Shown piece by piece: positions 50,328 to 55,612 of a stretch of DNA of 64,000 bases. The stretch lies in assembly GCF_056712565.1 (NCBI RefSeq), contig NZ_CM160072.1; one strand, given 5' to 3'. The notes below the pieces were generated by a model that was not told the DNA's origin, made no database searches, and saw only the letters and a program-made list of their open reading frames with translations. Position 1 is the first letter of the stretch. Each line of letters opens with the position of its first letter. The position numbers and the translations under genes are program-made.

Positions 50328-51284
50328 TCACAACACGTTTTTTATCTCCCTTCCTGCGAAGTAATCAATTATCGACTGGGCAACGTGTATCCCGGTTTGC
50401 TGGTATGACTCAACGGTGGCGGCCGCGATATGCGGCGTTGTAATGATATTTTTGGCATGTAGCAGTGGGCTAAATTGCGCCAACGGTTCAGAGCTAAACA
50501 CATCCAGCGCCGCAAACACATTTCGTTCTTCAATCACCTGAAGTAAAGCGCCCTCATCCAGCAACTTTCCCCTTGCGGCATTGATGATCAGAGCACCATT
50601 GCGCATCATCGACAAATATTTATGACTAATGAAGTTCTCCAGCTCAGAAGAAAAAGGCAAAAGAACAATGATGACATGCGACTGCATAAAGATATCTTCA
50701 ATTGATACAAACTGAACTCCAGCTTTGTCAGCAACCTGATAGTCGGGTTGTTTGTCAAAAGCTAAAAGCTCAACATCAAAACCGGATAACCTTTTCGCCA
50801 GAGTTTTACCTATATTACCGTAGCCAACCAGGCCAATCCGTTTCCCTTGTAATTCACAGCCATGCGACTCACCCCAGTAGCCATTTTGCATCGCATGATA
50901 GCTGCCAGGGATATTTCTCATGCTCGCGAAGATAAGTCCAATGATAAATTCCGCAACCGCATTTGAATTAATCCCAACCGCATTATTGACAACAATACCG
51001 GATTGCTGTGCCGCACGAAGATCAATATTGTCTATCCCCGTCCCGAATCTCGATATTATTCTCACACCAGGCAGCAATGATAGCGTGTCCGCCTGATAAC
51101 CATCTTTTCCGGCGATGACCGCGCAAATAGATTCTCGTAATGCAGTGGATTCTGATTTAAGCAGATGCTCCACATTATTCTTAATAATAAGATTAAAATT
51201 ATTCTCTCTTAGCAACTTGCTGGCGGAAACACAGCGTGCTGAAAAGCTGGGGAAGGTGACCAGAACATTTTTCATAGCGGACAC
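50328..51284 (-). CDS. D-isomer-specific 2-hydroxyacid dehydrogenase family protein
   Basis: 318 aa with NAD-binding GLVGYGNIGKTLAKR motif; AT-rich. Confidence 0.75.
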   Translation of the reverse strand: MSAMKNVLVTFPSFSARCVSASKLLRENNFNLIIKNNVEHLLKSESTALRESICAVIAGKDGYQADTLSLLPGVRIISRFGTGIDNIDLRAAQQSGIVVNNAVGINSNAVAEFIIGLIFASMRNIPGSYHAMQNGYWGESHGCELQGKRIGLVGYGNIGKTLAKRLSGFDVELLAFDKQPDYQVADKAGVQFVSIEDIFMQSHVIIVLLPFSSELENFISHKYLSMMRNGALIINAARGKLLDEGALLQVIEERNVFAALDVFSSEPLAQFSPLLHAKNIITTPHIAAATVESYQQTGIHVAQSIIDYFAGREIKNVL

Positions 51285-51346
51285 TCACTTCAAAGAACGC
51301 CACCCCAAAAGATGGCGTGACCGGTTACTGTATTTATATTTTGAAA

Positions 51347-51943
51347 TTATGAATTTGCTTTAATGCCGAGTGCACCTCCTGGATGATATAAGCCGAAATC
51401 AGCACGAGTAAATTTTTTCAATTCAGAGAGTGCAAGCGCCACCGCATCACCAACAACCAGAACAACAGTCGACGAGCATGACGGTGCTAAACCTAAATTA
51501 TCCGCCTCACTTTTGACGGGGATTTCAACAGATAAATCACAACTTATCGCAAGCGATGAGTGATGACTGCGGGTAAAAGAGATCAAATAATTACCCATTT
51601 TTTTCAAACTAGGCAGTGTCGCCAGGATTTCCGCCGTCTCACCACTGTTTGAAATAAGAATAACAACATCGTCTTTCGCCACCATTCCAAGGTCGCCGTG
51701 TACCGCTTCCGTACCGTGAACAAAAAACGAGGGAGTTCCGGTACTGGCAAAAGTTGCTGCGAGTTTTCTGGCAATAATACCGGACTTACCAACACCAATA
51801 AAAACAACTTTTCCCTGACAAGATTGTAATACTTTAATTAAATTAGCGAATTCAGAAAGTGGGGAATAAATAACCTCTTCTACTGCTTTAAGTTCGTTAT
51901 GCATAAAATGTTTAATGAGATAGATAAGATCCGTGTTATTCAT
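51347..51943 (-). CDS. SIS-domain sugar-phosphate isomerase-type protein
   Basis: 198 aa VVFIGVGKSGIIARKLAATFASTGTPSFFVHGTEAVHGDLGMV. Confidence 0.7.
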   Translation of the reverse strand: MNNTDLIYLIKHFMHNELKAVEEVIYSPLSEFANLIKVLQSCQGKVVFIGVGKSGIIARKLAATFASTGTPSFFVHGTEAVHGDLGMVAKDDVVILISNSGETAEILATLPSLKKMGNYLISFTRSHHSSLAISCDLSVEIPVKSEADNLGLAPSCSSTVVLVVGDAVALALSELKKFTRADFGLYHPGGALGIKANS

Positions 51944-51945
51944 TT

Positions 51946-53121
51946 TTATTCTCCCTGATTAATATTTTTAATTACACTCACAAGACGCGTAAGCCCCATA
52001 TATAATTTTTCTCGACCGCAGGCCAGGTTCAGACGAAGGTAGCCCTCCCCCTCCGTTCCATAGACATGCCCCGCCATAATGCCCACTTTGCCTTCATGAA
52101 TTAATCGACTGTAGAATTCATCAAAAGGATAACCAATAGCAGAACAATCTATCCAGGAAAAATAGCAACCATCAGCTGGCCTTACGATCAATTCTGGAAT
52201 ATTTTCATTCAGATACTGCTGGGTGAATTGAATGTTAGAGGCAATATGTGCCTTTAATGACTTTAACCATCCCTCACATTCGTTATAGGCAATAATAGTT
52301 GCAATTATATTCAGTACTGATGGGGAGTTTACAAAATCGCGATACCTCGATATCGTTCTGAACTTATGATTAAAATTATCGTCAGTTGAAATCATATACG
52401 ATCCTGTTAGTGCAGGAACATTAAATGTTTTCGATATCGAGTTAAATACTACTACTTTTTCTTTTTTTATTTTAAGCGCGGATGTAAAGCTACGATTAAA
52501 AACAAAATCACTATGGATTTCATCTGAACATAACCAGACATTATGCCTTGTACAGCTTGCAGCGATTTTATGCAGTTCTTCTTCCGACCAGACTGTTCCT
52601 GTCGGGTTATGAGGATTACATAATAACACCATCTTTGCGCTTTTAATCTTAAGATCAAAATCTTGCCAGTTGATAGCGTAGCCCCCCTCATTTTTTATAA
52701 TCAAAGAGGCTGTCAGAATATTTCGCTCGCTATGTTTAATTACATCAAAAAATGCATTATAGACAGGTGTAAAAACGAGAATATTATCACCATGCGATGT
52801 CAATAACTCTATTGCTTTTGCAATAGAGTACATCACACTGGGGCTATAGGTTATCCATTCAGGTTTAATATCTGTTTGATATTGTTGATAATACCAGTTT
52901 ACTATCGCATTCAGATATTCACCATGTTGCCAACGACTGTACCCTAAAATCGGGTGTTCCAGGCGTTTTTTTAATGCTCTGGTGATAGCGTCTGGTATCG
53001 GAAGATCCATATCTGAAATAGAGAATGGTAGTACATCTTTTACACCAAATCTGTCCTCGCAAAAGTCCCATTGGGTACAATATGTTCCTTTGCGGGAAAC
53101 AGGAGTATTAAAAACATCCAT
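51946..53121 (-). CDS. PLP-dependent class I/II aminotransferase (MalY/PatB-like C-S lyase)
   Basis: 391 aa; SISKTFN PLP-lysine motif. Confidence 0.7.
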   Translation of the reverse strand: MDVFNTPVSRKGTYCTQWDFCEDRFGVKDVLPFSISDMDLPIPDAITRALKKRLEHPILGYSRWQHGEYLNAIVNWYYQQYQTDIKPEWITYSPSVMYSIAKAIELLTSHGDNILVFTPVYNAFFDVIKHSERNILTASLIIKNEGGYAINWQDFDLKIKSAKMVLLCNPHNPTGTVWSEEELHKIAASCTRHNVWLCSDEIHSDFVFNRSFTSALKIKKEKVVVFNSISKTFNVPALTGSYMISTDDNFNHKFRTISRYRDFVNSPSVLNIIATIIAYNECEGWLKSLKAHIASNIQFTQQYLNENIPELIVRPADGCYFSWIDCSAIGYPFDEFYSRLIHEGKVGIMAGHVYGTEGEGYLRLNLACGREKLYMGLTRLVSVIKNINQGE

Positions 53122-54701: not shown

Positions 54702-54732
54702 GTGGGTTATCTCATATAAATGTTATATATAA

Positions 54733-55557
54733 TTAGTCCATTAATACTTTGGTACGAATAGAGAGATATAATTTTTCTTCTAAAATTAATTCATATTTAA
54801 AAGTGGCATACAGATACCGTTCAATTTCATGAATTGCGCGCTGTAACAGGATGTCCTTTTCAAGAAACTGTTCATAGATATCACCAATATCTTTCTGTTT
54901 TATTTTTTCATTGCATAACACGCGACTTGAAAAATATTTAAGGTGCATCATAAATCTGGAATAGTTAAATGAACTTCTGTCCACCTTTCTGTTATAAACA
55001 ACTTCAATAAGCTCCGTGATTATTTGCGACAACTCAATAATCCGTACTGATTCATAATCAACTGAATTTTCATAATTATTTAAAATATGCAATGCTATAA
55101 AACCAATCTCATCATCAGGAAGTTGAACGCTGAATTGCTCATTAATGATAGTTAATGCATCGCGACTTATCGCATACTCTGCTTTGTACAACGCTTTGAT
55201 TTCATCAAGGAAAACATTATTAATTTGTATACCTGAAACGACTCGGGATATTGCATTCGAAATGTGATCCGCAAGAATCAATAGTAGCGATGGATTGAGA
55301 TTTTTTTCGAGATTTTTCTCCGCATATTGCACTATTTTTTCGGCAACAAACACATACTCAATATCTACATGTTCAATCAATTTATAAAGTTTGTTTTTTT
55401 GTTCATTTCTGACATAAAAAATCCGGTTAGCCGGATGCTCAGGGACCGACATTCCATATTTTTTGTTGTAACCGACGCCAGGCCCAGAAATGATAACCTC
55501 CTGTCCATTCATCGATGCCTGTACACAATTATTGTTCATGACTTTTTCGATGATCAT
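54733..55557 (-). CDS. BglG/LicT-family transcriptional antiterminator
   Basis: about 275 aa from MIIEKVMNNNCVQASMNGQEVIISGPGVGYNKK (CAT RNA-binding domain) followed by PRD-like regions. Confidence 0.7.
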   Translation of the reverse strand: MIIEKVMNNNCVQASMNGQEVIISGPGVGYNKKYGMSVPEHPANRIFYVRNEQKNKLYKLIEHVDIEYVFVAEKIVQYAEKNLEKNLNPSLLLILADHISNAISRVVSGIQINNVFLDEIKALYKAEYAISRDALTIINEQFSVQLPDDEIGFIALHILNNYENSVDYESVRIIELSQIITELIEVVYNRKVDRSSFNYSRFMMHLKYFSSRVLCNEKIKQKDIGDIYEQFLEKDILLQRAIHEIERYLYATFKYELILEEKLYLSIRTKVLMD

Positions 55558-55561
55558 TCCA

Positions 55562-55612
55562 TGGCTCCAAAAAAAAAGGCAAGGCACGTCAGAAGTAATA
55601 ACTACTTCAAAC
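55562..55612 (-). terminator. leader hairpin with T-run directly upstream of the antiterminator gene
   Basis: on the minus strand aggcaaggcaatgtttgaagtagttattacttctgacgtgccttgcct followed by ttttttttt and ggag-ATG. Confidence 0.45.

What the first reader, a model, noticed from the sequence alone, without database searches (positions are those of the whole stretch)
50328..55612. AT-rich PTS sugar-utilisation operon with a BglG-type antiterminator between the island repeat and amiC
Five co-oriented minus-strand genes lie outside the repeat-bounded T6SS island, in a gap that I recall as gene-free in K-12: BglG/LicT-family antiterminator, PTS EIICB, MalY/PatB-like PLP-dependent C-S lyase, SIS-domain protein and a 2-hydroxyacid dehydrogenase. 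The pairing of a PTS permease with an aminotransferase, SIS protein and dehydrogenase hints at an amino-sugar or glycated substrate, but the substrate is unknown.
Basis: partly seen in the sequence, partly recalled or inferred. Interest (0 to 1): 0.55.

Follow-up and report, generated by a model that had tools for sequence, protein, structure and literature searches.

The report
Known UPEC paf PTS sugar operon
This is the already-described accessory sugar-uptake operon of uropathogenic E. coli (CFT073 c3405-c3410, pafR/pafP), switched by an RNA-binding antiterminator; it is real, and its sugar appears to be still unidentified.

Summary
Five intact, co-oriented minus-strand genes (2-hydroxyacid dehydrogenase, CBS-less SIS isomerase, MalY/PatB lyase, MalX-like EIICB, BglG/LicT antiterminator) fill the metV-amiC gap. 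They lie outside the repeat-bounded T6SS island, at 40% GC against 51% for the window. K-12 has only 73 gene-free bases there.

It is not new. The proteins are 98-100% identical to those at the same site in CFT073, which is c3405-c3410 of PAI-CFT073-metV. The antiterminator and permease are published as pafR and pafP, the SIS protein as the c3406 arabinose-5-phosphate isomerase (PDB 5UQI).

About 31% of complete E. coli genomes carry the operon, with or without the T6SS island.

Added here: a RAT-like hairpin overlapping a strong terminator sits in the leader just upstream of pafR. It occurs once per carrying genome, is unannotated, and shows compensatory changes in relatives. This fits substrate-controlled, self-regulated antitermination.

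The core antiterminator-EIICB-lyase-SIS cassette recurs in Citrobacter, Enterobacter, Clostridioides difficile and other Firmicutes. The permease is 63-84% identical across them, against 42% to K-12 MalX.

No substrate assignment was found; a sugar-amino-acid conjugate is plausible but untested. Verdict: already known, modest interest.

The parts
50235..50308 (+). Right-hand copy of the metV 3'-end direct repeat. It marks the T6SS island boundary and contains the hairpin ACCGCAAT..ATTGCGGT that sits just downstream of the dehydrogenase stop codon.
   Evidence: 41 nt 100% plus 20 nt 90% repeat with 19633-19706
50328..51275 (-). D-isomer 2-hydroxyacid dehydrogenase, PGDH-like, 315 aa. Has a GxGxxG motif and Arg/Glu/His catalytic motifs. 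It is not a SerA equivalog. It occupies the position of the CFT073 gene I recall as c3405.
   Evidence: 216 bits vs cut-off 454; 310/315 identical to CFT073
51291..51319 (-). Small hairpin in the 71-nt SIS-dehydrogenase spacer. It may be an internal attenuator or processing site; not established.
   Evidence: fold only
51347..51943 (-). SIS-only sugar-phosphate isomerase, 198 aa, with no CBS pair. Orthologue of the CFT073 protein I take to be c3406, published as an arabinose-5-phosphate isomerase.
   Evidence: PDB 5UQI, 196/198; PDB chain identical to the CFT073 protein; paper title
51946..53121 (-). MalY/PatB-family PLP-dependent C-S lyase, 391 aa, with a SISK Lys motif. 36% identical to K-12 MalY.
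   Evidence: 364.6 bits, above cut-off 340; 391/391 identical to CFT073
53121..54701 (-). PTS Glc-family EIICB permease (published name pafP), 526 aa. EIIB Cys469 lies in CVTRLR. There is no EIIA domain. 42% identical to K-12 MalX.
   Evidence: 63-84% identity to cassette orthologues
54733..55557 (-). BglG/LicT-family PRD antiterminator (published name pafR), 274 aa: CAT domain plus PRD1 plus PRD2. His98, His157 and His205 are conserved; the fourth PRD2 His is replaced by Arg.
55569..55623 (-). Intrinsic terminator in the leader: long hairpin GGCAAGGCA...TGCCTTGCC followed by T9, ending 11 nt before the pafR ATG.
   Evidence: -30.2 kcal/mol, z -3.96, 0/200 shuffles as good; compensatory G-C to A-U change in Citrobacter
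55615..55643 (-). RAT-like antiterminator target (core TTGTAACTGTTAAATCAGGCA, 55640-55620). Its 3' half overlaps the 5' arm of the terminator.
   Evidence: 1 match in the window, 0.03 expected; single copy in 1688 genomes
55695..55717 (-). Terminator-like hairpin about 100 nt downstream of the amiC stop codon. It probably ends the amiC transcript ahead of the paf leader.

Best explanation
This is the pafR-pafP operon (c3405-c3410) of the metV region of extraintestinal pathogenic E. coli. It is an accessory, horizontally acquired PTS operon for a carbohydrate that has apparently not been identified. Shown here: identity with the CFT073 locus; five intact, tightly packed genes; and a leader in which a RAT-like hairpin overlaps a strong intrinsic terminator immediately upstream of pafR. 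Inferred by analogy with BglG/BglF and LicT/BglP: without substrate, the EIICB PafP phosphorylates PafR on PRD1 and keeps it inactive, so transcription stops at the leader terminator. With substrate, PafP passes its phosphoryl group to the incoming sugar and PafR is dephosphorylated. PafR then dimerises, binds and stabilises the RAT, blocks terminator formation, and lets the whole operon be read, pafR included (positive autoregulation). PafP has no EIIA domain and should draw phosphoryl groups from Crr (EIIA-Glc); Firmicute versions of the cassette carry their own EIIA-Glc gene. The imported sugar phosphate is then processed by the PLP-dependent MalY/PatB lyase and the SIS aldose-ketose isomerase, which are the conserved core. 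In E. coli and Citrobacter an added 2-hydroxyacid dehydrogenase also takes part. The chemistry of those steps is not known.
For: Identity: same gene order between T6SS/metV and amiC in CFT073, with proteins 98-100% identical. c3405-c3410 is named as the PTS set within PAI-CFT073-metV. pafR is described as a regulator on the metV island, with pafRP and pafP mutants listed with mouse bladder and kidney phenotypes. The PDB 5UQI chain is identical to the CFT073 SIS protein. Families. PafR architecture and conserved PRD histidines. EIIB Cys and absence of EIIA. EIIA-Glc genes in the C. difficile and Clostridium cassettes. Leader: terminator -30 kcal/mol, z -4. The RAT core matches both K-12 bgl RATs in spacing and sequence. 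The upper RAT helix is paired in 9/9 sequences, with compensatory changes at 2 of 3 pairs. A compensatory change occurs in the Citrobacter terminator. The motif occurs once in the window against 0.03 expected, and once per genome in exactly the genomes that carry the operon. Operon packing.
Against: No transcription data were examined, so co-transcription and antitermination are inferred from sequence. The consensus scan found no sigma-70-like promoter on the minus strand of the leader. From memory, Baum et al. 2014 could not detect expression from the paf promoter in vitro. The two lowest base pairs of the classical RAT are not formed in the enterobacterial versions. PafR lacks the fourth PRD histidine. 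PRD2 is only weakly seen by Pfam (E 0.038). The covariation sample is small (9 sequences). From memory, deleting c3406 alone did not reduce virulence (Mosberg 2011), so the enzymes' contribution in vivo is unclear.
Confidence: 0.85

Rival explanations
1. PafP/PafR is chiefly a sensory pair. PafP senses a host-derived compound and PafR antiterminates or otherwise regulates virulence, biofilm and motility genes elsewhere in the genome. The linked enzymes would be secondary. This view is from Baum et al. 2014 as summarised in a review.
For: [quoted passage not shown]
Against: The only paf-type RAT/terminator detectable by similarity is the one in its own leader, one copy per carrying genome, and there is one motif match in the 64-kb window. 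The regulator, permease, lyase and isomerase travel together as one cassette across phyla, as expected of a catabolic unit. Diverged RATs elsewhere would have escaped BLAST.
Confidence: 0.3
2. The substrate is a sugar-amino-acid conjugate, such as a cysteine S-conjugate, an O-glycosyl amino acid or a glycated amino acid. After PTS uptake, the MalY/PatB enzyme splits off the amino-acid moiety as pyruvate plus ammonia. The SIS enzyme then isomerises the released aldose phosphate into central metabolism. This sharpens the first reader's hint.
For: The lyase and SIS genes are the invariant partners of the permease in every cassette seen. The lyase scores above the PatB C-S lyase cut-off. The C. 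difficile orthologue is reported to have cysteine desulfhydrase activity in vitro. More distant PatB homologues lie in other PTS operons beside M42/M20/M24 peptidases.
Against: No chemistry was tested. The SIS enzyme's published activity is arabinose-5-P/ribulose-5-P isomerisation (title; details from memory), which does not obviously follow from a hexose-type Glc-family permease. K-12 MalY also acts as a protein regulator of MalT, so a non-catalytic role is possible.
Confidence: 0.25
3. The operon is a cryptic, silenced relic like K-12 bgl. It would be kept off in most conditions, for example by H-NS on the AT-rich leader and pafR, and would contribute little.
For: The leader and pafR are 33-34% GC. 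No consensus promoter was found. From memory, no in-vitro expression was detected (Baum 2014). One ST131 genome has an IS21-family insertion within the matched stretch (H5).
Against: All five ORFs are intact here and in CFT073, a bovine strain and Citrobacter. The operon is retained in 1686 of 5426 complete genomes. Mutants are listed with mouse UTI phenotypes. The C. difficile orthologous operon is strongly regulated.
Confidence: 0.15
4. The module's main role is to supply arabinose-5-phosphate for KDO, LPS or capsule synthesis through the extra isomerase, rather than sugar catabolism.
For: The SIS protein is the closest relative of KdsD/GutQ/KpsF and is published as an arabinose-5-phosphate isomerase.
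Against: The same SIS gene is part of the cassette in Gram-positive Firmicutes. From general knowledge these make no KDO. From memory, the c3406 deletion was not attenuated.
Confidence: 0.07

Closest known systems
CFT073 c3405-c3410 / pafR-pafP operon of PAI-CFT073-metV (Lloyd 2007/2009; Mosberg 2011; Baum 2014)
   Same: Same chromosomal site, same gene order, 98-100% protein identity. It is the same locus in another ExPEC strain; the window is 100% identical to UPEC MS7163.
   Different: Nothing material. The original CFT073 annotation counts six genes where RefSeq and this window show five. The RAT/terminator leader is not annotated in RefSeq records. I could not check whether the primary papers describe it.
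E. coli K-12 bglGFB operon (BglG antiterminator, BglF EII)
   Same: A PRD antiterminator gene comes first, preceded by a RAT overlapping a terminator, followed by the cognate PTS permease. Both BglG and PafR lack the fourth PRD histidine. Both regions are AT-rich and poorly expressed in vitro (the latter from memory).
   Different: bgl has a second RAT/terminator between bglG and bglF, whereas paf has only 31 nt there. BglF is an EIIBCA of the beta-glucoside class followed by a phospho-beta-glucosidase. paf has an EIICB of the MalX class and no glycosidase. PafR scores best against LicT/GlcT rather than BglG.
E. coli K-12 malX-malY
   Same: A Glc-family EIICB is paired with a MalY/PatB C-S lyase. 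From general knowledge, the physiological substrate of this pair is also unresolved.
   Different: Identity is only 42% (permease) and 36% (lyase). K-12 malXY has the MalI repressor and no antiterminator, SIS or dehydrogenase gene. PafP falls below the MalX cut-offs.
Clostridioides difficile CD3027-CD3031 (antiterminator, malX, malY, phosphosugar isomerase, EIIA-Glc)
   Same: Same four-gene core in the same order. Identity is 69% (permease), 49% (lyase), 52% (SIS) and 36% (antiterminator), and the RAT core is similar.
   Different: It carries its own EIIA-Glc and has no dehydrogenase. Its RAT/terminator lies between the antiterminator and the permease, in four tandem copies. malY is reported essential there.
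gutQ in the K-12 glucitol (srl/gut) PTS operon
   Same: From general knowledge, this is another arabinose-5-phosphate isomerase paralogue embedded in a PTS sugar operon without an obvious catabolic role.
   Different: GutQ has the CBS pair, while this protein is SIS-only (profile positions 1-152 of 268; 198 aa).

Membership tests
CFT073 c3405-c3410 / paf operon (same locus) | Located between metV (or the T6SS island at metV) and amiC, with the same five genes in the same order | tested here: met
   CFT073 record; c3405-c3410 named as the PTS set in PAI-CFT073-metV
CFT073 c3405-c3410 / paf operon (same locus) | Near-identical protein sequences | tested here: met
   310/315, 196/198, 391/391, 522/526, 273/274 identical
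BglG/LicT/SacY PRD antiterminators | N-terminal CAT RNA-binding domain followed by two PRDs | tested here: met
   CAT 2.8e-14, PRD1 5.6e-24, PRD2 only 0.038; alignment to LicT across both PRDs, 7.6e-32
BglG/LicT/SacY PRD antiterminators | Conserved phosphorylatable histidines in PRD1 and PRD2 | tested here: inconclusive
   His98, His157 and His205 are invariant. The fourth position is Arg in E. coli and Citrobacter, Asn in BglG and His in the other orthologues.
BglG/LicT/SacY PRD antiterminators | RAT hairpin overlapping an intrinsic terminator in the regulated transcript | tested here: met
BglG/LicT/SacY PRD antiterminators | Demonstrated RNA binding and antitermination controlled by the cognate EII | not testable with these tools
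   Antiterminator activity of PafR is reported by Baum et al. 2014 (from memory; the paper is not held)
PTS Glc-family EIICB, MalX subfamily | EIIC domain plus C-terminal EIIB with the phosphorylated Cys | tested here: met
   (Cys469 in CVTRLR)
PTS Glc-family EIICB, MalX subfamily | Scores above the curated MalX family cut-off (orthology to MalX) | tested here: not met
   535.6 vs 632.2 (TIGR02004) and 523.5 vs 665 (NF007509); 42% identity to K-12 MalX
PatB/MalY C-S lyases | Profile score above the cut-off, and a PLP-binding lysine | tested here: met
   364.6 vs 340; SISK motif; MalY 1D2F at 6e-86
PatB/MalY C-S lyases | Beta C-S lyase activity | not testable with these tools
   Reported only for the C. 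difficile orthologue (cysteine desulfhydrase in vitro, as cited)
KpsF/GutQ/KdsD arabinose-5-phosphate isomerases | SIS domain of the KdsD type | tested here: met
   KdsD 1.2e-58; 2XHZ API 6e-41
KpsF/GutQ/KdsD arabinose-5-phosphate isomerases | C-terminal tandem CBS domains / full-length family score | tested here: not met
   198 aa, covers profile positions 1-152 of 268, 191.8 bits vs cut-off 203.7
KpsF/GutQ/KdsD arabinose-5-phosphate isomerases | Arabinose-5-P/ribulose-5-P isomerase activity | not testable with these tools
   Published for c3406 (title; details from memory). The PDB 5UQI chain is identical to the CFT073 protein at this locus.
D-3-phosphoglycerate dehydrogenase (SerA) | Equivalog-level score | tested here: not met
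   216.6 vs 454. This supports only general D-2-hydroxyacid dehydrogenase membership (NAD motif and Arg/Glu/His motifs).

The most novel reading that the evidence does not exclude
The antiterminator-EIICB-PatB lyase-SIS isomerase cassette may be one conserved, cross-phylum pathway for a single, specific and still unidentified compound. That compound would most plausibly be a sugar-amino-acid conjugate available in the gut and urinary tract. The permease stays 63-84% identical from E. coli to Clostridia, against 42% to E. coli's own MalX. Finding the compound would explain the UPEC mouse fitness phenotype, the strongly regulated C. difficile malXY operon, and the old MalX/MalY puzzle.
Probability: 0.25. 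Interest if true: 0.6.

Novelty: already known. Interest (0 to 1): 0.25.

Why it matters
The locus is already tied to urinary-tract fitness of UPEC in mice, and about a third of complete E. coli genomes carry it. What is missing is the transported compound and the role of the lyase, isomerase and dehydrogenase. Two results here make that question easier to attack. First, the leader is a self-contained RAT/terminator switch that can serve directly as an induction reporter. Second, the four-gene core, with an unusually conserved permease, is shared with Citrobacter, Enterobacter, C. difficile and other Firmicutes, so the substrate can be sought in whichever organism is most tractable. As a scan finding it is a correct re-discovery, not a new system.

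Tried and rejected
- **Rfam:** a scan of 49900-56000 at E<=1 found no family, so no curated RNA family covers the RAT leader.
- **Promoter scan:** no sigma-70-like site on the minus strand of the leader. The promoter remains unlocated.
- **Primary papers:** Lloyd 2007 and 2009, Mosberg 2011 and Baum 2014 are not held. Their content is cited from memory or through reviews and reference lists.
- **Fusion proteins:** I first thought the MalY stop codon and the SIS ATG were in frame, which would explain the 550-592 aa fusion proteins. The sequence shows 2 nt between them, so a simple stop-codon loss does not explain the fusions. I dropped the idea.
- **Second RAT:** I looked for one between pafR and pafP, as in bgl and the Firmicute cassettes. 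Only 31 nt lie there and there is no motif.
- **Extra PafR targets:** a BLAST search with the 91-nt leader found only the leader itself. This cannot exclude diverged RATs.
- **Literature on the substrate:** searches found no substrate assignment. A 2026 genome paper still lists the five ORFs by similarity only.
- **Not run:** a genome-contig scan, structure prediction and fold searches. The proteins have close solved or annotated relatives and the locus is already published.

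
Full report
**Observation**

The region 50328-55614 holds five co-oriented minus-strand ORFs with no internal stops. NCBIfam assigns them as follows:
- a PGDH-like D-2-hydroxyacid dehydrogenase (6e-64, far below any equivalog cut-off);
- a KpsF/GutQ/KdsD-type SIS protein of only 198 aa, covering profile positions 1-152 of 268, so it has no CBS pair;
- a PatB-family C-S lyase (364.6 bits, above the 340 cut-off);
- a MalX-like EIICB (1e-160, but below the MalX cut-offs);
- a LicT/GlcT/BglG-type antiterminator (9e-67).

The module is AT-rich. 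GC is 0.40 overall and 0.34 for the antiterminator gene and leader, against 0.51 for the window and 0.54 for amiC.

The window carries metZ, metW and metV at 19350-19646. A direct repeat of the metV 3' end and its downstream hairpin (19633-19706 and 50235-50308) brackets the 30.6-kb T6SS island. The five genes lie between the right-hand repeat and the amiC stop codon at 55815.

In K-12 MG1655 only 73 gene-free bases separate metV from amiC (a K-12-like strain). An alignment of the junctions shows that the module replaces that whole spacer, from the end of the tRNA to the amiC stop codon, without flanking repeats of its own.

Two CDS starts should be moved. The antiterminator most likely begins at 55557 (274 aa). 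This is the RefSeq start, it has GGAG 5-6 nt upstream, and the LicT alignment begins there. The longer ORF would contain the leader terminator. The dehydrogenase most likely begins at 51275.

**Identity**

The stretch is 100% identical to UPEC strain MS7163. The same arrangement (metZWV, T6SS, five genes, amiC, argA) is present in CFT073. Protein identities to CFT073 are 310/315, 196/198, 391/391, 522/526 and 273/274.

A published synteny survey names c3405-c3410 as the 'PTS system, maltose/glucose specific' gene set inside PAI-CFT073-metV. It reports the set in all four UPEC examined and in SMS-3-5, and absent from K-12.

A review summarises Baum et al. 2014. pafR is a transcription regulator encoded on the metV island of CFT073, and pafRP and pafP mutants are listed with mouse bladder and kidney phenotypes.

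The SIS protein matches PDB 5UQI/5VHU at 196/198, and that chain is identical to the CFT073 protein at this locus. [quoted passage not shown]

From memory, because the primary papers are not held:
- Lloyd et al. 2009 found a c3405-10 deletion out-competed in mouse co-challenge.
- Mosberg et al. 2011 showed isomerase activity for c3406, noted the missing CBS domains, and found a c3406 deletion not attenuated.
- Baum et al. 2014 showed PafR can antiterminate but could not detect paf promoter activity in vitro.

A 2026 genome paper on APEC BEN2908 still lists the same five ORFs by similarity only. The locus is therefore already known, and I found no assignment of its substrate.

**Distribution**

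Of 5426 complete E. coli genomes, 1686 carry at least 80% of the stretch. Of these:
- 951 have the T6SS-operon junction exactly as in the window;
- the remaining ~735 carry the operon without that junction; those inspected have it directly beside metV;
- about 250 further genomes match the T6SS side without the operon.

All four states exist: empty, operon only, T6SS plus operon, and T6SS only.

**Regulatory anatomy**

This is the part I could add. The 257-nt leader (55814-55558) contains, in order on the minus strand:
- a terminator-like hairpin about 100 nt downstream of the amiC stop codon (55717-55695);
- a RAT-like element (core TTGTAACTGTTAAATCAGGCA, 55640-55620);
- a long hairpin GGCAAGGCA...TGCCTTGCC (55623-55578) followed by nine T (55577-55569);
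- GGAG, then the ATG at 55557.

The hairpin folds at -30.2 kcal/mol, with z = -3.96 and none of 200 shuffles as stable. The 3' half of the RAT is the 5' arm of the terminator, which is the classical mutually exclusive design. The RAT alone folds at only -6.3 kcal/mol, as expected for a structure that needs protein to hold it.

The core has the same sequence blocks and spacing as the two RATs of the K-12 bgl operon read from MG1655. The motif occurs once in the 64-kb window, where 0.03 is expected.

Orthologous leaders show compensatory changes. In an Enterobacter and another proteobacterial version, CUG/CAG becomes CUA/UAG in the upper RAT helix. That helix is 100% paired, with 2 of 3 pairs changed on both sides. 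In the Citrobacter terminator, one G-C pair becomes A-U. The sample is small, so this is supportive rather than decisive.

The two lowest pairs of the classical RAT are not formed in the enterobacterial versions. The 91-nt leader is found once per genome in 1688 genomes, essentially those with the operon, and is unannotated. Rfam has no family for it.

PafR has a CAT domain and two PRDs. His98, His157 and His205 are invariant across orthologues. The fourth PRD2 histidine is Arg in E. coli and Citrobacter, and Asn in BglG.

PafP has the EIIB cysteine (Cys469) and no EIIA domain. Clostridial versions of the cassette carry an EIIA-Glc gene, so in E. coli the donor is most likely Crr; this is an inference.

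Gene spacing is 31 nt, a 1-nt overlap, 2 nt and 71 nt, which fits one transcript. A small hairpin lies in the last spacer.

**Mechanism**

The best-supported reading is a Bgl-like, self-regulated switch. PafP phosphorylates and silences PafR when idle. Substrate transport drains the phosphoryl group. Dephosphorylated PafR then binds the RAT, prevents the terminator from forming, and the five genes are transcribed. The sequence anatomy is shown here. The phosphorylation logic is inferred from the BglG/BglF and LicT/BglP paradigms.

**Catabolic part and relatives**

Searching with the lyase found the same genes in the same order in several organisms:
- Citrobacter freundii, all five genes at a different chromosomal site;
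- an Enterobacter, four genes;
- an unnamed metagenomic contig, five genes;
- a Bacilli contig;
- a Clostridium, with EIIA-Glc alongside;
- Clostridioides difficile, antiterminator-malX-malY-isomerase-EIIA, that is CD3031-CD3027.

The conserved core is antiterminator, EIICB, lyase and SIS. The dehydrogenase is an enterobacterial addition.

Across these versions the permease is 63-84% identical to PafP, although it is only 42% identical to K-12 MalX. The lyase is 44-69% identical, against 36% to K-12 MalY. This points to a single well-defined substrate and to transfer between phyla, consistent with the low GC in E. coli.

In C. difficile the operon is strongly regulated: about 20-fold up in biofilm and about 20-fold changed in a fliC mutant in vivo. 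malY is reported there as essential and as a cysteine desulfhydrase in vitro.

More distant PatB homologues sit in other PTS operons next to M42, M20 or M24 peptidases. Together with the absence of any glycosidase, this makes a sugar-amino-acid conjugate a reasonable guess. I give it about 0.25.

**Rivals**

- PafR/PafP may be mainly a sensor for virulence gene control, which is not exclusive with catabolism (for; and the cassette conservation against).
- It may be a cryptic bgl-like relic. The AT-rich leader and the lack of a consensus promoter favour this. Intact genes in a third of genomes and the listed mouse phenotypes argue against it.
- It may exist to supply arabinose-5-phosphate for KDO. 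The same gene in Gram-positive cassettes argues against this.

**Verdict**

The finding is real and correctly read, but it re-discovers a published UPEC locus. The remaining open question is the substrate. The leader switch and the cross-phylum cassette described here are practical handles on it.

Noticed in passing
window 19633-19706 and 50235-50308: The 30.6-kb T6SS island is flanked by a direct repeat of the metV 3' end plus its downstream hairpin: 41 nt perfect, then 20 nt at 90%. This is typical of site-specific insertion at the tRNA. Genomes exist with the T6SS but no PTS operon, carrying a MucR-family gene next to amiC instead (L004).
   Followed up: partly
L009 5999-6400 (Clostridioides difficile): There are four tandem copies of a ~104-nt unit between the antiterminator gene and malX. 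Each unit has a RAT followed by a terminator-like hairpin and a T-run. This is an unusual serial attenuator.
   Followed up: no
L002 5678-6886 versus window 51946-53121: Within E. coli the lyase gene is far more diverged between operon alleles than its neighbours: 333/391 aa identical, against 96-97% for the adjacent permease and SIS genes. The bovine-type allele is 402 aa and overlaps the SIS start. This suggests mosaic recombination inside the operon.
   Followed up: partly
proteins P0002-P0005, P0009, P0010: Some E. coli and Shigella records encode 550-592 aa proteins carrying both the aminotransferase and SIS domains, apparent lyase-isomerase fusions. In the window the two genes are 2 nt apart and out of frame, so a frameshift or a sequencing error would be needed.
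   Followed up: partly
L014 4085-4426 and 9957-10280 (Clostridium sp.): The EIIA/antiterminator/EIICB/lyase/SIS cassette is flanked on both sides by DivIC-family ORFs, as if it had inserted into or duplicated that gene.
   Followed up: no
hit H5, NZ_CP103742.1 (ST131 strain 2822): An IS21-family ISEc12 element lies within the matched stretch in this genome; the match is split into two pieces.
   Followed up: no
window 51291-51319 (minus strand): A small GC-rich hairpin followed by UCUUUG lies in the 71-nt spacer between the SIS and dehydrogenase genes. It may partly uncouple the added dehydrogenase gene from the core.
   Followed up: partly
window 44000-45000: A 31-33% GC stretch sits inside the otherwise 55-60% GC T6SS island. 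It may be a foreign effector/immunity insert.
   Followed up: no
L017 and L019: PatB/MalY homologues at 44-48% identity lie in Lac/Cel-type or Fru-type PTS operons together with M42/M20 and M24 peptidases and PRD-containing activators. This is a recurring PTS-plus-peptidase-plus-lyase association.
   Followed up: no
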